This document shows, one piece after another, positions 1,801-12,487 of a stretch of 64,000 nucleotides of DNA; position 1 is the stretch's first letter, and the number at the start of each line of letters is the position of its first letter. The stretch is from Promethearchaeota archaeon (GTDB taxonomy: Archaea > Asgardarchaeota > Lokiarchaeia > Sigyniarchaeales > SOKP01), in the NCBI GenBank assembly GCA_048938855.1, contig JBHLLT010000001.1, forward strand, positions 32,001 through 96,000, read 5' to 3'. Below the pieces are notes generated by a model that was given only the letters and a program-made list of their open reading frames with translations, was not told the DNA's origin and made no database searches. Made by a program: the position numbers and the translations under genes.

Positions 1801-2760
1801 TTAGAAATTAGAATATACCATAAATTTATCTCCAGACCCCAAACTGTAAAGTTCGAATTTGCTACCGCGCTTAGTTTCACAGAACATTTGAATCATTGGG
1901 AATAAGTAGATTTGAGAAGTAATTTGTGAATCTTTATCTTTACTATAACTTCTATAATCATTACTTGCAGCTCCAATCGTCTTTTTAATATTTTTATTCC
2001 AATATCCTAATGAGGGTTCCGCTTTAGATTCTAAATCTTTAAAATCGCTAAATTTAATACCCTCAACTTCTTCAATCATCTTATGGAGATCTTCTCCAAT
2101 TTCTTTCTCATACTTTGTTTGAGCACTTGAATGAAGAATAGGTACACCTGTAACAACTGTTTGAAAAGGTACAGGAAGGTCTTCATACTTGTACAGATTT
2201 TTATACCCTCCACATTCTTTACATGGTTCAATTCTGTTTCCAGTACCATAACAAGCACCGCATGGATAAGAAAATACTTTTTTTTCTTTATTCTGCTCTT
2301 GATCAACTAATATAATGAGATTTTCTTCAATTTTACCAGTACCTTTGCACGTTTTGCACTTATTTTCCATATATCCTTTACCTCTACAATTTTTGCAAGG
2401 GACTGCTTGTAATGACTCATATTGAGGGACAATCTCATCTCCCTTCCATTCATCTTTATTTATCTTTCCTACTCCTTTAAATGAATAGAATTGAACTCTT
2501 CCTACTTTAGGGGCAGTTATAGTAGATTCTTCTTTTCCTTTTGGAGCAGGACCGAGGGATTTTTTAACAGCAAAATAAATTGCTGCTTCTTTATTAGTAT
2601 CTTTTACATATTCAGCTGCACTAATAGCATCTAATGTAAAAACCGCTCCTTTTGTGCCAAATTGTTTTTCCATCTTTTTACGATCTGTTCTAGCCGCTTT
2701 TTGTTTCCATTTCTCAAAAATATCGTCTAAATTTGGTGTTTTTATTCTGACATCAGGCAA
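1801..2760 (-). CDS. DnaJ-type CxxCxGxG zinc-finger repeat protein, SSUH2-like, no J-domain
   Basis: CKNCRGKG, CKTCKGTG, CGACYGTG, CKECGG; no HPD motif; C-terminal QIYLFP...FELYSLG...VY segment. Confidence 0.7.
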   Translation of the reverse strand: MPDVRIKTPNLDDIFEKWKQKAARTDRKKMEKQFGTKGAVFTLDAISAAEYVKDTNKEAAIYFAVKKSLGPAPKGKEESTITAPKVGRVQFYSFKGVGKINKDEWKGDEIVPQYESLQAVPCKNCRGKGYMENKCKTCKGTGKIEENLIILVDQEQNKEKKVFSYPCGACYGTGNRIEPCKECGGYKNLYKYEDLPVPFQTVVTGVPILHSSAQTKYEKEIGEDLHKMIEEVEGIKFSDFKDLESKAEPSLGYWNKNIKKTIGAASNDYRSYSKDKDSQITSQIYLFPMIQMFCETKRGSKFELYSLGSGDKFMVYSNF

Positions 2761-3191: not shown

Positions 3192-5858
3192 TTGAGTCTC
3201 CCTTTAAGAAATTTCTTTATTATTTTTGATAGAAATCGTGATCATAAGAAAGATTTGATATTTAACGTTAACTTCTTTTATCTAAAATCATTTAAGAAGA
3301 AGAAATTTACATTTACATATGTAAAAGAACCATTTTTTAAGGGGAGCGTAATTTTAGGATCAGATTTCAAAAATAAAATTCGTCCTCTAAGTTTTAATAA
3401 AACTGAAAAAGATGGACATCAACAGCCAATTAATCCAAGATTGTTAAAAAAGTTTATATTATCTGATAAAAACAAATTTATTGCTTTTTCAAGTCAAACT
3501 CCTTCTCAAGATGTTTCATCAATTATGGAGATGCTAAGTAATTTTCAATATGACACATCTAAGATTATAAATTTAACCTTATGCAATTCTTGTATGGAAA
3601 AACATACATTTACATTAATAAATGAAAATTTTCAAATTAAATCTTATAAAGACCAAATTATTTGTTCAGAATGCGCATATGAGATTATATTGAATAGAAT
3701 TAAGCTTACAGGGCTTATTTCTCAGGAAAAGATTAGTCCTAAATTAAAGAATTTTTTAATGCATTTAATCCTCAAATTTAGAGATGTCAGAAAAGTTCTA
3801 GAAGCGTTTAAAGCAGATTTTGATCCTACAAAATCAAAGGATATCACTCTATATGACATTGAGAAAACTCCATCAATTAGTAAAAAATTTCTTAATCAAA
3901 AGATAAGTAGCTTAAGTATTCCAGTCAATTTTAAAGAGATATTAAAAAATTTAAAATTAATTAATCTATTACCCATTCAAGCAATTTCTATTGAAAAGGG
4001 TTTATTATCAGATCGTAGTAATCAATTGATTATGGCCCCTACGAGCGGAGGCAAGACTTTGGTAGGAGAATTAGCTGGAATCTCACATGTTTTAAAAGAT
4101 AAAGCTGCTAAAATGTTGTATTTAGTACCAATTGTAGCTTTAGCTAATATTAGGACAGAAGAATTTAAGGAGAAATATAAACCACTGAAGCTAAAAATCA
4201 TTAAAAAAGTTGGAGAATCATTATTTGAGAAAAAAGAAGATAAAAATAATAAAGAGTTAACGGATGCTCATATTATAATTGCCACATATGAAGCAATTGA
4301 TTTTATTTTAAGAAGTGGGAAAAGAGAACTTTTAGGAAATATTGGTACTATTATAATTGATGAAATTCAAACATTAATTGATCCTGAGAGAGGATTTATA
4401 CTAGATGGTTTAATAGCAAGATTAAAAACCCAATATAATTCTCAATTTCTATATTTAAGTGCTACATTAGGAGAACCCGAATTTTTAGCTAAAAGACTTA
4501 ACTGTAAATTGATAAAATATAATGATCGTCCTGTTCCAGTTGAACGTCATTTATTGCTTTCTTTAAGTGAAGCACAGAAACTTAAATTTATCTCATTATT
4601 AATGAAGAATGCTTATTCCACAAAATCTAAGTACGGATTTAAAGGTCAATCAATAGTTTTTACTAATACCCGAAAAAAGTGTGAATCAATTACATTTTAT
4701 TTACAACAACGTGGACTTAATGCTGCTGCTTATCATTCAGGTTTAACAAATGAAGAAAGAAAAATTATTGAAGAAGATTTTCAATCACAGAAACTAGTAG
4801 GAGTAGTAGCCACTGCAGCATTGGCAGCAGGTGTAGATCTTCCAGCTCGACAGGTAATTTTTGAATCTTTAGCAATGGGTATAAATTGGTTAACTGTTGC
4901 AGAATTTGAACAGATGCTAGGGCGTAGTGGTAGATTAAAAAAACATGAAAAAGGTTTAGCCTATCTCCTTGTTGAACCTGGAAAGATATATTCACCTAAA
5001 ATGAAGATTACTGAAGAAAATATCGCAATAAAACTTTTGAATGGAAAAATTAAAGATTATGAACTTATACCTGATATGGACAAGTCCCAAACTGAAATAT
5101 TAGCATTTATTTCAATGTTCAATCAAAGAATACCAAAGGATACCGTATATAGCTTTTATAATCTTTTAATAAATAATCATTTTGATTTGGAAGAAGTTCT
5201 AAAGAAATTAATTTCTCTTAATCTGATTCGCATAAAAGAAGATTTAACTATTAAAACAACACGAATAGGAAGAGCAATTGCAAATTCGTTTATTAGTGTT
5301 GATGGTAGTATTGAAATTATTAGGAAATTACAGAATAAGCTAGAGACACCTATGGAAATTGCCTTAAATTTAGAAACTCTCAGAAATGTATATTTATCTA
5401 AAAACATCGTTGCAGATTTATCTAAAAATGTTAATATGAAATATTTCTCAAATAATTTATTTAGCGCTAGTGTTTTATCGTTGATGAATGCAGAGTATGT
5501 AAAAAAGAGAAAATCATTTTCACGTGATTTTATTGATTTTATTATGAAGCTAACAGGCGAAGTATTCAATTGTAATTGTAAAGATAACCCGTATTGTGAA
5601 TGCGGTCGTTTAAACCTAGAAAAACTAATCCTAAATTTAAGAATAAATAGTAATATGACAATAGAAGAGATATCTAACTATTTGATGGAAGAATATAAAA
5701 TTATGATTTTTAAGGGAGATCTCATTGATTATTTAGAAAGTTTGATTTATAGTTTAGAAAGTATAAAAAATATAGCAGAAGGCATTTCCAATTTAGATGA
5801 AACATTCAACAAAGAAATAAAAGAGATACCTCACTTAATAGAGAGCATAAAATACTAA
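3192..5858 (+). CDS. Archaea-specific superfamily II DEAD/DEAH helicase (ASH-Ski2/COG1202-like)
   Basis: APTSGGKT, DEIQ, LSAT, YHSGL, TAALAAGVDLPA, QMLGRSGR; N-terminal CxxC..CxxC and C-terminal CNCKDNPYCECG. Confidence 0.9.
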   Translation: MSLPLRNFFIIFDRNRDHKKDLIFNVNFFYLKSFKKKKFTFTYVKEPFFKGSVILGSDFKNKIRPLSFNKTEKDGHQQPINPRLLKKFILSDKNKFIAFSSQTPSQDVSSIMEMLSNFQYDTSKIINLTLCNSCMEKHTFTLINENFQIKSYKDQIICSECAYEIILNRIKLTGLISQEKISPKLKNFLMHLILKFRDVRKVLEAFKADFDPTKSKDITLYDIEKTPSISKKFLNQKISSLSIPVNFKEILKNLKLINLLPIQAISIEKGLLSDRSNQLIMAPTSGGKTLVGELAGISHVLKDKAAKMLYLVPIVALANIRTEEFKEKYKPLKLKIIKKVGESLFEKKEDKNNKELTDAHIIIATYEAIDFILRSGKRELLGNIGTIIIDEIQTLIDPERGFILDGLIARLKTQYNSQFLYLSATLGEPEFLAKRLNCKLIKYNDRPVPVERHLLLSLSEAQKLKFISLLMKNAYSTKSKYGFKGQSIVFTNTRKKCESITFYLQQRGLNAAAYHSGLTNEERKIIEEDFQSQKLVGVVATAALAAGVDLPARQVIFESLAMGINWLTVAEFEQMLGRSGRLKKHEKGLAYLLVEPGKIYSPKMKITEENIAIKLLNGKIKDYELIPDMDKSQTEILAFISMFNQRIPKDTVYSFYNLLINNHFDLEEVLKKLISLNLIRIKEDLTIKTTRIGRAIANSFISVDGSIEIIRKLQNKLETPMEIALNLETLRNVYLSKNIVADLSKNVNMKYFSNNLFSASVLSLMNAEYVKKRKSFSRDFIDFIMKLTGEVFNCNCKDNPYCECGRLNLEKLILNLRINSNMTIEEISNYLMEEYKIMIFKGDLIDYLESLIYSLESIKNIAEGISNLDETFNKEIKEIPHLIESIKY

Positions 5859-7048
5859 GTTATATGTATTTCTATTACATCATAATCTTCCAAATTATAA
5901 TCTGAGCCAACTTTTTTGCGTTTCTGACGTGCTCCTTCACGTATTACTATAGCATGATCAAAATTCTCATAAAAACTTCTGTGAATTTTTTCGGCGACTT
6001 CCTTTACTGTAACACCTTCTTCCATAAGGAGAGGTTGATTAGCAACTATTCCATTACTCATGGTAAATATCCTTATCTTCTTTAAAACTTTTAAGATAAT
6101 TTCACCAAAATCTTTTGGGAAATTATCTTTATAGATACTAGTTCCTAGAATTATGGGAAATCTATCAGAATATTTCCTTTTTAAGATTTCAAAAGTCTCT
6201 TGAGTATGAGGAAGATCTCCTTTTGTACCAATTAGGATTACTTTCTTATATACAATTGAAGGGATTAAAGCATCTATAATATCATCAATAGTTATTTTAC
6301 CATATACCTTAACAATTCCATTACGAATTCCATTTTCGGTTACTATTTCTTTTATTTGTTCTGTTAAGTTGTCTAAATCCTTTATTTTCTTTGCTTTTTT
6401 AGTTAAATATAACACTTGAATCTTATTAGCACCAGTTTTTTCGATAGTTAGCGGGGGGGCGGTCTGGTTTATCCTAATTTCAGCTTTTGTTAATTCAGTT
6501 ATTAAAAGATCCATCTGTTCATTTATATTCCTTGATAAGTCAATACAAAAACATAAGAGATCTGCTGCTCTAAGTTGCGAAAGAATCTCTTTTCCATTAC
6601 CAATACCTTCCGAAGCACCTTCCATTATAGAGGGCATATCTACAATTTGAAATCTAATACTTTGATATTTATAGATTCCAATTTCTGGAATCGGGGTAAA
6701 TTTACCAATTTTTTCTTCTGCTGCACCTGTTAAATAATTTAAAAGTGTAGTTTTTCCTGCACCAGGAATATAGAAACTACTGATCAATATTATTTGGAGT
6801 CCTTCTTTTTTTATAGAGAAAGGGCTCACAATTTTTTGAGTGCTTTTCTGTTTTTGTCTGTGCTCCTCGACTTCCCGTTTCATCTTAGCTAAACGAGATT
6901 TATTGAGTGCTACAATTTTTTCTGTAGCTTTATGCTTAGGAACAAGTGATAAGAACTCTTCTAATTTCTTAATTTTTTCTTCTTTAGAACCAGCATCAAG
7001 ATATTCTTGATATTTTGCTTTTGCAGCAGGTGGTAAATTTGAGCTCAA
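5855..7048 (-). CDS. DRG/OBG-family GTPase with C-terminal TGS domain
   Basis: PKHKATEK N-terminal motif, PGAGKTT, QIVDMPSIMEGA, TKGD; TGS segment TVKEVAEKIH...DVIEIH. Confidence 0.9.
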   Translation of the reverse strand: MSSNLPPAAKAKYQEYLDAGSKEEKIKKLEEFLSLVPKHKATEKIVALNKSRLAKMKREVEEHRQKQKSTQKIVSPFSIKKEGLQIILISSFYIPGAGKTTLLNYLTGAAEEKIGKFTPIPEIGIYKYQSIRFQIVDMPSIMEGASEGIGNGKEILSQLRAADLLCFCIDLSRNINEQMDLLITELTKAEIRINQTAPPLTIEKTGANKIQVLYLTKKAKKIKDLDNLTEQIKEIVTENGIRNGIVKVYGKITIDDIIDALIPSIVYKKVILIGTKGDLPHTQETFEILKRKYSDRFPIILGTSIYKDNFPKDFGEIILKVLKKIRIFTMSNGIVANQPLLMEEGVTVKEVAEKIHRSFYENFDHAIVIREGARQKRKKVGSDYNLEDYDVIEIHIT

Positions 7049-7068: not shown

Positions 7069-7524
7069 TTAAAATAAAGATCGAAATCTATCTTCTGTTT
7101 TTAATCTTAAATCTCCTAATACTTCATTAACCCGGGATTCAAATTGCTTGAAATATTTAGGTTTTTTTGAAAATATATCATTAAGGGGATAACGGTTTAA
7201 GAAATAGGTAATTATTTGATTTAACTGGCGTTTAACTACATTTGCATCTGTTTCTTTTTCTATTATTGCATAGGTTAATAAAGGCTGTTTATCAGAATTA
7301 TCTTCGCTTGGTAGTGTAATCATCTCACAAAAACAGACCAACTTAAAGCTTGCCAGACTAATTACATTTATGTCATCACCAAAAACTTCCGACGTGAATT
7401 GCTCTAACGCTGTAAGGAAACCAGCACGTAAATTTGGATCCAAAACATCATCTGAGGATGAATAATATTTAATCTCAACTAAGTTTCGCATACCTAAATT
7501 TATTCCTACTTCAAGAACGGCCAT
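7069..7524 (-). CDS. Stand-alone longin-like domain protein
   Basis: DPNLRAGFLTALEQF helix motif in a beta-beta-alpha-beta-beta-beta-alpha-alpha pattern, shared with two other proteins in the window. Confidence 0.6.
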   Translation of the reverse strand: MAVLEVGINLGMRNLVEIKYYSSSDDVLDPNLRAGFLTALEQFTSEVFGDDINVISLASFKLVCFCEMITLPSEDNSDKQPLLTYAIIEKETDANVVKRQLNQIITYFLNRYPLNDIFSKKPKYFKQFESRVNEVLGDLRLKTEDRFRSLF

Positions 7525-8686: not shown

Positions 8687-9796
8687 TTAAATTCTTCTTC
8701 TTTTCCAAAGAAAGACAACTATTGCGATAATTAATCCGATAGAACCTAGAACGACCCCCAAAATCAAATAGTTAAACTCAACCATCCATATTTCATCATT
8801 TAGAAAAGATAATTTTTGTAATGTATTTAGAGTTTCAAATCCGTGGTAAGAAGAAGTTACTGAAGAAATTATTGATTGATCTTCTTGAAAAGTCTCTGTA
8901 AATCCACCATCCTCGAAGTTTTGATGCTTTAAAACCCATGAAACTATTTTTTGAGTGTCTAACGCCTCACTATTGATTAAAGAAATTGCTTTTACACAAT
9001 AATATGTACTACTTAATAATGCATTTGATGCTAATTCAGAAGGGAGAAATCCTCCATAATTGTCAAGATCTGCGGAAACATTGACATAAAAAGATTTGAG
9101 GTATTCCAATGTTTTATTAATATCAACAAGATCATTAATATCTCCAAATCTTTCATCGGCAAGAATAAATGCGGCAATACTTGTATCAAAAAAGGTTGAT
9201 GATAGTGTTTGATTTCCTCCATATCCACCATCTGTATTATTACATGAAAGAACCCAATTTTTATGAGTTGATACATTTGCAATCGGTTTATCTATTAATG
9301 AGTAGATTTGAATTGCATAATATGTGCAAGTAAGGCTCGATAAATGGGTAGTATTTGAAAAGGAAAAACCACCTGCAGGTTGTGCTGTTTCATTTAGAAA
9401 TTCATAAATTTTAGTTGTGAGAACTGATGTAATAGTGAACTCTAATAAGTTCAATGATTTCAATAGGTAATATATGTTATAAATATTTACTACAGTGCTA
9501 TCAAACATATCTTTAATTCTTTCTTCCAATTCAGTACCTATGGAGGTAAAATCATGTAGATTTGTTCCCATATCATTCAAAATGCTTAGTGCATAAGCTG
9601 TTGCTTCAAGAGAAACTAGTTCTTCCCCACCCTCACCACTAATAACATTAGAAAAGCCTTCTCCTTCGATTTCAGTATTTAATATGAAATCCCTTAAATA
9701 TGAATGTCGAGTTTTTCCTAATACGCTCGGAATTGCATTTATTGTTAAAATTATTGCGAAAGTAATGATGATAAATTTCCGATATTTATGTTTCAA
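8687..9796 (-). CDS. Secreted, membrane-anchored prenyltransferase/squalene-oxidase-repeat (alpha/alpha barrel) protein
   Basis: N-terminal signal-like segment; repeats QPAGGF, DGGYGG, YGGF, EDGGF each followed by TYY-type helices; C-terminal TM helix + WKRRRI. Confidence 0.75.
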   Translation of the reverse strand: MKHKYRKFIIITFAIILTINAIPSVLGKTRHSYLRDFILNTEIEGEGFSNVISGEGGEELVSLEATAYALSILNDMGTNLHDFTSIGTELEERIKDMFDSTVVNIYNIYYLLKSLNLLEFTITSVLTTKIYEFLNETAQPAGGFSFSNTTHLSSLTCTYYAIQIYSLIDKPIANVSTHKNWVLSCNNTDGGYGGNQTLSSTFFDTSIAAFILADERFGDINDLVDINKTLEYLKSFYVNVSADLDNYGGFLPSELASNALLSSTYYCVKAISLINSEALDTQKIVSWVLKHQNFEDGGFTETFQEDQSIISSVTSSYHGFETLNTLQKLSFLNDEIWMVEFNYLILGVVLGSIGLIIAIVVFLWKRRRI

Positions 9797-9951: not shown

Positions 9952-11472
9952 TTAAAGGATTTCACTGATATCTCGATATAACAATTCTCTATTGACTTGA
10001 AATTGATCGTATGTGATAAATAATTTTCGAAAAGATTCTAAACTACCTAGAATCGCAGCTCCATTAAAAATAGCATATTGAAGATTATCTGGTACGAAAA
10101 ATTTGAGGACTTTACTTGCTGATTTAATAGTTTCAGAGAATTCTCTGGCAGCTGATTTTTCCTCTATTACTTTTGGGATATCGGGAATTTCTATTGATTC
10201 TATAGGCTTTCCACAATATGGGCAGAAAACAGAATCAGAATCAGGAATTTGTTTTCCACAATTTGGACAATTACCTTTTAATGGTTTTTGTGTACCATCA
10301 TCTTGCTTACTAATTTTAATCTTGGGCAATACTAATACACCACCACATGAAGGACATAAATTCTTTCCATCACTGAGATCTATAAATGCACCACAGTGAG
10401 GACAATTATCTGCCTTCTTTTTAGAAATTTCTACTGCTTGTAACTTAATTAATTCACTTTTAACAGCAGACAGAGGTGTAACTGGTTTTGGAATAGCACC
10501 TAATTCAGGAAGAATTGAATCTAATTCCACTTCAAAACGTTCTTGAAATCCTGAATATGTGAGATTTCCTCCAGAAAAAACTATATGAGATAAAAGATCA
10601 TACCAATATAAACTATCAATATTTCTTAAACTTGCGAGAATTGCTTGAGGAATATTCATGACATTACTATAACCTAGCATTGCAGGATTAAATAATACTT
10701 CTGGAGCTTGATAGAGAATATAAGTTGGAACATTAATAGTTGATCCATCGGGCATGGGAACTCCAAACATATCTCCGGATTTTATAGATTTATTTGCATC
10801 TAAAACAAAGTAACAGTTTTTTTCTTTTATTTCTTGAATAATTTCATCTGCTGCACTTGAAGCAATACTCACACCTTCTCTCATTAGTAGACTTTTTAAA
10901 TTTTGATTTACATCAATTCCTGCTAAAGAGAGTTTTTGAACAGCATGTTGCACAATTTTACCGTTTATTATTGGTACAATCCAGGTTAATCCATCCCCCG
11001 ATTCGATTACTAATCCTGTCGTTAACCCTACACTAAATAACGATAATAATGGTGTTGGCATCATCATTAAACTATTAACCCGGTGTGTTTCAAAGAAAAG
11101 TCGAGCAATATATTCTTTTGTATCCTTATTTATGAAAGGCGATTCACAATAAAAAACTGGATATTTAGACAGATCTTCGATTCTAAGTAGTGAATAAAAA
11201 ATATAATTCAAGATTTCATAGTAACTTTCCCAATCCATAATTTCTCCACGACTTAAAGGATGTTTGATTTTTAATACCCCCCTCATCCGTGATACATCGT
11301 TTCCAACATAAATACTTCTAGCACTTACATCGACCATGACAGATTTGTATTTTTCAGTTCCAGTAATACAAGGGAATACAAATCTTGGTCCAGGTTCTCC
11401 CGCAAATCCTATTTTGACATATGCTGATCCGATATCAATTATAATTGGGGTTCCAGCTAAAGGTAGTGCCAT
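9952..11472 (-). CDS. Actin-family (actin-related) protein with inserted double zinc ribbon
   Basis: IIDIGSAYVKIGFAG, HPLSRGEIMDW, TTGLVIESGDG, IKEKNCY, APEVLFNP, IVFSGG, GAAILGSL; insert carries CPHC/CPSC/CPNC/CPYC. Confidence 0.93.
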   Translation of the reverse strand: MALPLAGTPIIIDIGSAYVKIGFAGEPGPRFVFPCITGTEKYKSVMVDVSARSIYVGNDVSRMRGVLKIKHPLSRGEIMDWESYYEILNYIFYSLLRIEDLSKYPVFYCESPFINKDTKEYIARLFFETHRVNSLMMMPTPLLSLFSVGLTTGLVIESGDGLTWIVPIINGKIVQHAVQKLSLAGIDVNQNLKSLLMREGVSIASSAADEIIQEIKEKNCYFVLDANKSIKSGDMFGVPMPDGSTINVPTYILYQAPEVLFNPAMLGYSNVMNIPQAILASLRNIDSLYWYDLLSHIVFSGGNLTYSGFQERFEVELDSILPELGAIPKPVTPLSAVKSELIKLQAVEISKKKADNCPHCGAFIDLSDGKNLCPSCGGVLVLPKIKISKQDDGTQKPLKGNCPNCGKQIPDSDSVFCPYCGKPIESIEIPDIPKVIEEKSAAREFSETIKSASKVLKFFVPDNLQYAIFNGAAILGSLESFRKLFITYDQFQVNRELLYRDISEIL

Positions 11473-11571: not shown

Positions 11572-11997
11572 TTACTTTTTCATAAATTTAAGAAGAGTTT
11601 TGAGGATTTCTTTTTGCATGACTATACCTATAAGATCATTATTTTCATCTACAACGGGTAATCGTTGTACTTTTTTATTGAACATTATCTCTAAAACATA
11701 GACTAATGTATCATCTTCTTTTACAACAAATGGTTCTGGCGTCATTAAATCCTTAACAAGCGTATTGGGGGAGTCTAAACTCATTGCAAACCTGGCAAGA
11801 CGTATATCTCTTTGCGTAATAATGCCAATTAATCTTTTATCCTTTCTATCTTTAACAATAGGAAGACCTCCAATATTTTTCCTAATCATCAATAATTCAG
11901 TAGCACTTATTTTCTCATTTGGAAATGTATATAATGGATCTTTTATCATTATCTCAGAAACTTTTATTTTACTTAGTTTGCTTAAACAATCTTCCAT
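11572..11997 (-). CDS. CBS domain pair protein
   Basis: KVSEIM, GGLPIV, LIGIITQRDI, VKDLMT, RLPVVD, LIGIV. Confidence 0.92.
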   Translation of the reverse strand: MEDCLSKLSKIKVSEIMIKDPLYTFPNEKISATELLMIRKNIGGLPIVKDRKDKRLIGIITQRDIRLARFAMSLDSPNTLVKDLMTPEPFVVKEDDTLVYVLEIMFNKKVQRLPVVDENNDLIGIVMQKEILKTLLKFMKK

Positions 11998-12088: not shown

Positions 12089-12487
12089 TTAGCGACTACT
12101 AATAGATTCAATTAGTTTTTTCTCAATTTTTATTAATTCCTTTGAATGTGCCTTATATATCTTTAATAGATATTCACCCCACTCGTTTAACTTTACCCAA
12201 CCCCCTCCACCGCGGCCTCCTTTTCCAGTGATAACAGGACTCATTCCAGTCCTATTTTCAATTCTTTTTAAAATATTCCATGCATATTTATATGAATATC
12301 CCTCTTTTTTTTTATGAGTACATTCTTTAGCTGCTTGAGTGAGAGAACCTCCATCATTTTTTTTAATTTTATCTAACAACTCCGCCCATCCAGATCCCAA
12401 TATATTTTTATTATCAAATTTTAACCATAGTTTTACTCCAAAACCTACTTTAGATTTTAATTCTTCTATATTGGGATGATTTTCCAT
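12089..12487 (-). CDS. ModE-N-like winged-helix transcriptional regulator (no molybdate-binding TOBE domain)
   Basis: GSLTQAAKE, SYKYAWNILKRIE, GGRGGGG wing. Confidence 0.85.
   Translation of the reverse strand: MENHPNIEELKSKVGFGVKLWLKFDNKNILGSGWAELLDKIKKNDGGSLTQAAKECTHKKKEGYSYKYAWNILKRIENRTGMSPVITGKGGRGGGGWVKLNEWGEYLLKIYKAHSKELIKIEKKLIESISSR

What the first reader, a model, noticed from the sequence alone, without database searches (positions are those of the whole stretch)
9952..11472. Actin homolog carrying two zinc ribbons inside the actin fold
Seen: a complete actin fold with a ~130-aa insertion (about nt 10108-10509) between the ERFEVEL helix and the LKFFVP strand. The insert contains CPHC-CPSC and CPNC-CPYC (double zinc ribbon). 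Knowledge: this position matches the actin ~320-327 loop, where Arp3 carries a short insert; conventional actins and Lokiactin have no zinc-ribbon insert. Inference: a specialised actin-related protein with a built-in interaction module, possibly a nucleator, capper or adaptor of an Asgard cytoskeleton.
Basis: partly seen in the sequence, partly recalled or inferred. Interest (0 to 1): 0.75.

Follow-up and report, generated by a model that had tools for sequence, protein, structure and literature searches.

The report
Asgard actin relative with zinc ribbons
This is a real, conserved actin-like protein of one order of Loki-type Asgard archaea that carries tethered zinc-binding modules and keeps only one of actin's two filament-stacking faces, so it probably caps actin filament ends and ties them to the membrane; this is untested and I found no paper describing the insert.

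Summary
Confirmed. The 506-aa ORF (9952-11472, minus strand) is a full actin fold interrupted at actin residue ~325 by a 129-aa insert with two four-cysteine zinc ribbons. It is no chimera: 120 homologues keep all eight cysteines. Orthologues occur in 145 of 153 other genomes of the order and none of 246 outside it; some carry one ribbon. The Ca. Lokiarchaeum ossiferum orthologue is UYP44711.1, a published but undescribed, transcribed 'ARP'. All 32 sampled members lack catalytic Q137. They keep Lokiactin's pointed-end face (M44, R62, P243, D244) and lose the barbed-end face (F169, V287, D288, R290), like engineered DVD-actin, which joins a barbed end and blocks it. A second ARP in the genome shows the mirror pattern. 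Ribbons of this type sit mostly on membrane proteins here (29 of 48, background 22%). Best reading (0.45): a non-hydrolysing barbed-end cap and membrane adaptor for Lokiactin filaments, not an Arp2/3-like nucleator. Binding is not shown. The scan found this family before on other DNA.

The parts
9952..11472 (-). Gene for the zinc-ribbon actin-related protein, 506 aa (P0001)
10501..11472 (-). Actin core, N-terminal part (residues 1-324)
   Evidence: Pfam Actin 9-322; PDB alignments; coordinates
10114..10500 (-). 129-aa insert (residues 325-453) at actin ~325; 99-172 aa across the family
10345..10404 (-). Zinc ribbon 1 (C357, C360, C373, C376), present in all 32 sampled members
10213..10269 (-). 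Zinc ribbon 2 (C402, C405, C417, C420), absent in 6 of 32 members (the Sigynarchaeum family, L. ossiferum and one relative)
10132..10149 (-). Short acidic-aromatic motif (A-x-E-F-x-E, residues 442-447) conserved within an otherwise low-confidence linker; candidate binding motif
   Evidence: E444 in 27 of 32, F445 in 20 of 32 diverse members; F445 in 120 of 121 close homologues; pLDDT low
9955..10113 (-). Actin core, C-terminal part (residues 454-506, actin ~325-375)
11317..11355 (-). D-loop (residues 40-52), Lokiactin-like; part of the retained pointed-end face
11053..11055 (-). T140, in place of catalytic Q137 (S/T/A in 32 of 32)
10981..10983 (-). W164, in place of H161 (H kept in only 4 of 32)
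10603..10617 (-). Subdomain-3 patch 286-290 (D-S-L-Y-W instead of Lokiactin D-V-D-L-R): degenerate barbed-end contact
8687..9796 (-). Conserved downstream neighbour: signal peptide, prenyltransferase-type alpha/alpha toroid, C-terminal TM helix, short basic tail; linkage ancient but not obligatory
   Evidence: Pfam Prenyltrans; next gene in 48 of 50 loci; exceptions and wider distribution
11572..11997 (-). Upstream CBS-pair gene, mostly adjacent in this family only; probably bystander
12089..12487 (-). Upstream ModE-like winged-helix gene, adjacent in two families of the order

Best explanation
A nucleotide-binding but non-hydrolysing actin-related protein that acts as a barbed-end cap and membrane adaptor for Lokiactin filaments. 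Step 1 (shown by sequence and model): it folds as an actin with the insert looped out of subdomain 3 on flexible linkers. Step 2 (inferred from residues): it binds an adenine nucleotide (D11, G13, K18, G156, G158, E214, G301, G302 kept) but splits ATP poorly or not at all (Q137 and mostly H161 lost), so it does not cycle like a filament subunit. Step 3 (inferred): its Lokiactin-like pointed face docks onto the barbed end of a Lokiactin filament. Step 4 (inferred): its own barbed face is degenerate and carries the insert, so no further subunit adds. Step 5 (weakly inferred): the tethered ribbons, of a type used mainly on membrane-protein tails in this genome, and the acidic-aromatic motif bind a cortical partner and fix the capped end at the membrane.
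For: Face asymmetry against Lokiactin: identity 0.55 on the pointed face, 0.30 on the barbed face, 0.37 overall; permutation p 0.007-0.016, seen separately in each of three family groups. Score difference 1.27-2.28 in all 32 members against a mean near 0 in 34 other divergent actins, only 3 of which reach 1.27. R62, P243 and D244 kept in 32 of 32, M44 in 31, A204 in 23; hydrophobic 287, D288 and aromatic 169 lost in 32 of 32, R290 in 31. R62-D288 and D244-R290 are intersubunit salt bridges (PMC10019781). DVD-actin (286-288 mutated) joins barbed ends and blocks further addition (PMC12215623). The second ARP of these genomes shows the mirror image (R62 and M44 lost in 26 of 26; Y143, 169, D288, R290 kept). 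Q137 activates the attacking water (PMC5173319). Ribbon type: 29 of 48 other carriers in this genome have a predicted TM helix against 22% background and 14 of 110 other CxxC pairs, stable over thresholds. A zinc-ribbon protein anchors FtsZ1 to the membrane in Haloferax (bioRxiv 10.64898/2026.07.16.738847). The L. ossiferum orthologue is transcribed below Lokiactin, as a regulator would be.
Against: No binding, nucleotide or localisation data exist. The interface residue sets came from my memory of F-actin and were chosen after seeing the alignment; positions and sequences are not independent, so the p-values are indicative only. Lateral contacts are not well kept (score about 1.1-1.2 against 1.9 overall), and members of the family that holds the cultured strains have a 4-residue deletion at 199-204 on the pointed face. 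S14 is E or Q in 16 of 32 members, which may impair ATP binding. A retained pointed face could also serve another partner. TM calls were crude hydropathy in one genome. The neighbouring membrane protein has only a 5-7 residue cytoplasmic tail, and is unlinked or missing in two genomes.
Confidence: 0.45

Rival explanations
1. It is a structural subunit of a discrete complex and not a free capper: for example the barbed-end piece of a dynactin-like minifilament whose pointed end is the second ARP, or a heterodimer with that ARP, with the ribbons recruiting cargo or another cytoskeletal polymer such as FtsZ or tubulin.
For: The two ARPs have complementary faces, so the pointed face of this one could dock on the barbed face of the other. 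Both lack Q137. Both occur in most genomes of the order. W290 is conserved in 24 of 32, suggesting that the old stacking face is repurposed. Zinc ribbons can bind FtsZ.
Against: No orthologue of the second ARP was found in the four Sigynarchaeum-family genomes (63-88% complete), all of which have this protein. The genes are never adjacent. This reading overlaps with the best one if the minifilament is made of Lokiactin.
Confidence: 0.25
2. It works away from the cytoskeleton, as a monomeric nucleotide-binding scaffold like the nuclear ARPs (Arp4, 5, 6, 8), with the ribbons binding nucleic acid, ubiquitin-like proteins or a protease machinery.
For: Large inserts and lost catalytic residues are typical of nuclear ARPs (own knowledge). 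A winged-helix gene is often adjacent. Small zinc ribbons can bind nucleic acids or ubiquitin (own knowledge).
Against: Does not explain why the D-loop, 61-64 and 241-245 stay Lokiactin-like over the whole order. Like ribbons in this genome are mostly on membrane proteins.
Confidence: 0.12
3. It forms its own filament (or copolymer) decorated with zinc ribbons, using a co-evolved barbed face.
For: Complete actin fold with a full D-loop; part of the hydrophobic groove is kept (F143, T148, L346, F352); the insert is on flexible linkers and may swing clear.
Against: Its pointed face matches Lokiactin while its barbed face does not, so self-stacking has no matching pair; positions 287 and 288 vary freely within the family. 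Crenactin V339K at the tip of the equivalent subdomain abolishes polymerisation (PMC4158420). No Q137.
Confidence: 0.1
4. It is an Arp2/3-like nucleator that templates new barbed ends.
For: Arp2 and Arp3 have elongated subdomain-3 loops.
Against: Arp2/3 offer their barbed faces to the daughter filament; here that face is the one lost. The second ARP, which keeps the barbed face and lies beside a proline-rich gene, fits this role better.
Confidence: 0.07
5. Assembly chimera or chance fusion.
For: None.
Against: 120 homologues with the same layout; present in 145 of 153 other genomes of the order; tree follows the host families; contigs span the junctions.
Confidence: 0.01

Closest known systems
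Ca. Lokiarchaeum ossiferum actin homologue UYP44711.1 (one of three 'ARPs' in Rodrigues-Oliveira et al., PMC9834061)
   Same: Orthologue: 38% identical, same gene neighbours, same clade, insert at the same site; both published RT-qPCR primers match it exactly. Transcribed below Lokiactin.
   Different: It has one ribbon and a more acidic linker. The paper names no insert ('zinc' occurs 0 times in the main text) and gives no function.
Lokiactin / conventional actin (Pfam PF00022; PDB 9wc4 'HC1 actin' is the best solved match)
   Same: Same fold (TM 0.87-0.91 by target), 38% identity over the core, retained phosphate-loop glycines and pointed-end face.
   Different: Insert of 99-172 aa at ~325; Q137, H161, H73 replaced; barbed-end contacts lost; confined to one order, whereas Lokiactin is phylum-wide.
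Engineered DVD-actin (D286A V287A D288A)
   Same: Same face disabled, A204/P243 face intact; joins barbed ends and blocks them (PMC12215623). This is the 'works like' model.
   Different: A laboratory mutant of true actin; has catalytic residues and no insert.
Arp2 and Arp3
   Same: Actin-related, with elongated subdomain-3 loops (PMC2651865).
   Different: Their loops are short and metal-free, they keep the barbed face and Q137 (own knowledge) and need ARPC subunits; polarity here is opposite.
Arp11/Arp10 of dynactin
   Same: A divergent ARP that ends an actin-like filament because one stacking face is lost (own knowledge).
   Different: Arp11 caps the pointed end and has a truncated subdomain 2; this protein has an intact subdomain 2 and a degenerate subdomain 3.
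CdpC (HVO_0399) of Haloferax volcanii
   Same: Two zinc ribbons on a flexible linker that tie a cytoskeletal polymer to the membrane (bioRxiv 10.64898/2026.07.16.738847).
   Different: Stand-alone protein acting on FtsZ1; homology of its ribbons to these was not tested.
Lokiarchaeota-only 'asgardactin 02/03' clades (Da Cunha et al., bioRxiv 10.1101/2020.06.16.150565)
   Same: Loki-restricted ARP clades in a published tree; this family is probably one of them.
   Different: Identity not verified; the preprint says all structural domains are conserved and mentions no insert.

Membership tests
Actin superfamily, eukaryote-like actin/ARP group (PF00022) | Actin profile match above the curated cutoff and four-subdomain actin fold | tested here: met
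   209.9 bits against cutoff 27; model pLDDT 86.9 and TM about 0.9 to actin
Lokiactin / bona fide actin | Falls in the conserved phylum-wide Lokiactin clade | tested here: not met
   Separate clade with support 99; the genome has its own Lokiactin
Lokiactin / bona fide actin | Catalytic Q137 and H161 | tested here: not met
   Q137 in 0 of 32, H161 in 4 of 32; both in 31 of 31 Lokiactins
Lokiactin / bona fide actin | Both longitudinal stacking faces intact | tested here: not met
   Pointed face kept, barbed face lost
Lokiactin / bona fide actin | Forms double-helical filaments | not testable with these tools
   Needs purified protein
Arp2/3-type nucleator | Usable barbed face for daughter-filament growth | tested here: not met
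   169, 287, 288, 290 replaced
Arp2/3-type nucleator | Phylogenetic grouping with eukaryotic Arp2 or Arp3 | not tested
   My tree held only three Asgard families; labelled Arp1-10 sequences were not at hand
Arp2/3-type nucleator | ARPC partner subunits | not tested
   None recognisable among conserved neighbours; the genome was not searched for them
Filament-end capping ARP (Arp11-like in function) | One stacking face kept and the other lost | tested here: met
   polarity opposite to Arp11
Filament-end capping ARP (Arp11-like in function) | Binds a filament end and blocks elongation | not testable with these tools
   Biochemistry needed
Zinc ribbon (PF13248 / DZR PF12773) | Paired CxxC motifs scoring above the Pfam cutoff, with invariant cysteines | tested here: met
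   49.2 bits against 27, and 31.2 against 27.3; 8 Cys in 121 of 121
Zinc ribbon (PF13248 / DZR PF12773) | Binds zinc | not testable with these tools
   Inferred from motif and confident local model only

The most novel reading that the evidence does not exclude
Loki-type archaea evolved, independently of eukaryotes, a matched pair of end-specific actin paralogues: this protein as a barbed-end cap with a built-in zinc-ribbon membrane adaptor (a function for which eukaryotes use the unrelated capping protein), and the second ARP as a pointed-end cap or nucleator. Together they would set length, polarity and membrane attachment of the Lokiactin filaments that drive protrusions and crawling.
Probability: 0.3. 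Interest if true: 0.85.

Novelty: new variant of a known kind. Interest (0 to 1): 0.63.

Why it matters
Asgard archaea have actin filaments and move by dynamic protrusions, but how filament ends are controlled and held at the membrane is open, and their ARPs have no assigned role. This family is present in cultured strains (Ca. L. ossiferum by primer match; Ca. Harpocratesius repetitus by record name), and its sequence gives a sharp prediction: barbed-end capping without ATP hydrolysis, with a detachable adaptor. An actin paralogue that caps barbed ends is not known to me from eukaryotes, so a positive result would show a parallel route to actin regulation. Because the family is confined to one order far from the eukaryote-sister lineages, it tells about Asgard cell biology more than about the eukaryotic ancestor.

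Tried and rejected
Chimera: rejected. First AlphaFold run with 33 close sequences gave a poor model (pLDDT 54) and was discarded. Sequencing-run search: no RNA holder listed. Promoter and terminator scan gave chance-level counts and is built for bacteria. ESM Atlas feature search of the insert gave no usable hit; the structure search found only this family's own cluster and plain actins. Search with the ribbon region found only family members, full-length or partial. Sixteen other divergent Asgard actin homologues have no ribbons. An obligatory operon with the downstream membrane protein was considered and weakened: gap 41-337 bp, unlinked in G279, no orthologue in G276 (92% complete), and orthologues exist in classes without this ARP. 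Ten literature searches found no description of the insert; the library lacks most subscription papers and two reviews I recall (Stairs and Ettema 2020; Akil and colleagues 2021) were not read. One paper id was not held. The careful tree did not finish; the quick tree was used, unrooted and without eukaryotic ARPs.

Full report
Observation. The minus-strand ORF 9952-11472 encodes 506 aa. Pfam gives Actin at 9-322 and zinc-ribbon models at 357-424. Against solved actins the alignment covers 5-323 and resumes at 455-493, so residues 325-453 (nt 10114-10500) are inserted at actin residue ~325. A structure model from a 132-sequence alignment has a confident actin core (mostly pLDDT above 90), two confident ribbons (83-92) and low-confidence linkers, and matches actin structures at TM 0.87-0.91 by target. 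The alignment contained plain actins, so the model supports but does not independently prove the fold; sequence similarity alone already does.

Reality and spread. The 120 best homologues share the layout and all eight cysteines. One contig of run X1, possibly the source sample, spans both junctions; contigs from another study bridge each. In 400 genomes of the phylum, orthologues were found in 127 of 134 other genomes of this family, 1 of 1, 13 of 14 and 4 of 4 in the other three families of the order (three are contig-end fragments found), and none in 246 genomes outside the order. Most absences are in incomplete genomes; G147 (100% complete) lacks both this gene and its neighbour. Named carriers include Ca. 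Harpocratesius repetitus and Ca. Sigynarchaeum springense. In a quick unrooted tree the family is one group with support 99, and its branching follows the host families. The insert is 99-172 aa; ribbon 1 is universal, ribbon 2 is missing in 6 of 32.

Link to the literature. The orthologue in the 6.04-Mb closed genome G138 carries both RT-qPCR primers published for UYP44711.1 of Ca. Lokiarchaeum ossiferum. So the family is one of the three unnamed ARPs in Rodrigues-Oliveira et al. (PMC9834061) and is transcribed, below Lokiactin. The paper does not mention zinc or an insert. Da Cunha et al. list two Loki-only asgardactin clades, without an insert. Ten searches found no description; the library is incomplete. 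This scan has noted the same family in many other genomes; those notes agree and are not independent evidence.

Nucleotide site. With Lokiactin as the numbering reference, D11, G13, K18, G156, G158, G182, E214, G301 and G302 are kept in all 32 diverse members. Q137 is S, T or A in all 32, H161 survives in 4, D154 is mostly E, H73 is always R, and S14 is E or Q in half. Q137 activates the attacking water (PMC5173319). Inference: nucleotide binding is likely in this member, efficient hydrolysis is not.

Stacking faces. I scored similarity to the Lokiactin consensus on residue sets for the pointed-end face (D-loop, 61-64, 200-208, 241-245) and the barbed-end face (139-148, W-loop, 283-294, 322-325, groove, C-terminus). 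The sets are from memory and were chosen after I had seen the alignment. Identity was 0.55 pointed, 0.30 barbed, 0.37 overall (permutation p 0.007-0.016), with the same sign in each family group. The sets are not biased as such: 34 other divergent actins average about zero difference and only 3 reach the family's minimum. Key positions: R62, P243, D244 in 32 of 32, M44 in 31, A204 in 23; against no hydrophobic 287, no D288, no aromatic 169 in any, and R290 in one. R62-D288 and D244-R290 are intersubunit salt bridges (PMC10019781): this family keeps the pointed-side partner of each and drops the barbed-side one. Engineered DVD-actin, mutated at 286-288, joins barbed ends and blocks further growth (PMC12215623). 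The insert also leaves from subdomain 3 at 322-326, on the same face. Against this, lateral contacts are poorly kept and nine members lack four residues at 199-204.

A mirror-image paralogue. The genome holds three actins: Lokiactin, this protein, and a 373-aa ARP beside a proline-rich gene. That ARP family loses R62 and M44 in all 26 members and A204 in 25, and keeps Y143, an aromatic 169, H173, a hydrophobic 287, D288 and R290; the paired contrast between the two families gives p 0.027. It was not found in four Sigynarchaeum-family genomes that have the ribbon ARP, which argues against an obligatory pair, although those genomes are 63-88% complete.

The ribbons. Profiles built from the family's ribbons hit 48 other ORFs in this genome; 46 carry the ribbon within 40 residues of an end and 29 have a predicted membrane helix, against 22% of all ORFs and 14 of 110 other CxxC pairs; the excess holds at all thresholds. 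So this ribbon is a common Loki module, mostly on tails of membrane proteins; what is unusual is its splicing into an actin loop on long linkers. In Haloferax a two-ribbon protein anchors FtsZ1 to the membrane, a functional precedent and not a tested homologue. A short A-x-E-F motif near the end of the insert is conserved in a disordered stretch.

Neighbourhood. The next gene downstream encodes a signal peptide, a prenyltransferase-type toroid with many N-glycosylation sequons, a C-terminal membrane helix and a 5-7 residue basic tail; it follows the ARP in 48 of 50 loci (18 of 20 diverse ones) and three more fragments. But the gap is 41-337 bp, the pair is broken in two genomes, and the gene exists in other Asgard classes without the ARP. 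FolD, a ModE-like gene and a CBS gene are also conserved neighbours, so slow rearrangement may explain part of the linkage. I count it as a lead only.

Verdict. Real feature; a new variant of Asgard actin-related proteins, already in trees and databases but, as far as I could find, not described. Most likely (0.45) a non-hydrolysing barbed-end cap and membrane adaptor of Lokiactin filaments; next a subunit of a defined ARP complex (0.25), a non-cytoskeletal scaffold (0.12), an own filament (0.10) or a nucleator (0.07). Fold, insert, distribution and residue patterns are shown; nucleotide state, Lokiactin binding, capping and the membrane link are inferred. Interest 0.63.

Noticed in passing
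L002:5794-6915 (-) and L002:7045-7737 (-); orthologues L053-L077: Second Loki ARP family (373 aa) keeps the barbed face and loses the pointed face, the mirror image of the finding; in this family of genomes it often follows a proline-rich gene with a conserved WH2-like C-terminal helix. Candidate nucleator or pointed-end cap.
   Followed up: partly
L199:1503-3593 (+) and L200:1885-4149 (+), genome G398: Two apparently circularly permuted actin homologues: Lokiactin residues ~75-379 come first, then 10-84, then about 300-350 extra residues.
   Followed up: no
L201:4983-9485 (-) and L201:1963-2889 (-), genome G128: An actin homologue in two pieces: residues 13-70 lie inside a 1500-aa ORF, residues 71-378 form a separate 308-aa ORF about 2 kb beyond it.
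   Followed up: no
L193:1116-3548, L194:2044-3495, L195:1756-3468, L196:952-3513 (all -): Genomes of the same class but other orders encode divergent actins with C-terminal extensions (483-853 aa in all), without zinc ribbons.
   Followed up: no
window 8687-9796 (-); relatives L208-L219: Asgard-wide cell-surface protein with a prenyltransferase-beta-type toroid, signal peptide and C-terminal TM anchor; related domains occur in 800-1400-aa proteins in clusters in other classes. Function unknown.
   Followed up: partly
genome G000, 48 ORFs listed: A small four-cysteine zinc ribbon is expanded in this genome, nearly always at a protein end and mostly on membrane proteins.
   Followed up: partly
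L207:2137-3339 (-), genome G189: A fourth, very divergent ARP family in many genomes of the order (not found in G000 by tblastn); this member also has W at 290 and scores higher on the pointed than the barbed face.
   Followed up: no
G195:C12:3294-4412: The orthologue in this 58%-complete genome has five stops inside the match: a frameshift, broken gene or assembly error.
   Followed up: no
window 5855-7048 (-) and 7069-7524 (-): DRG-like GTPase with a TGS-type end next to a longin-like gene, in the same conserved block in this family.
   Followed up: no
window 1801-2760 (-): Protein with DnaJ-type CxxCxGxG repeats but no J-domain match.
   Followed up: no
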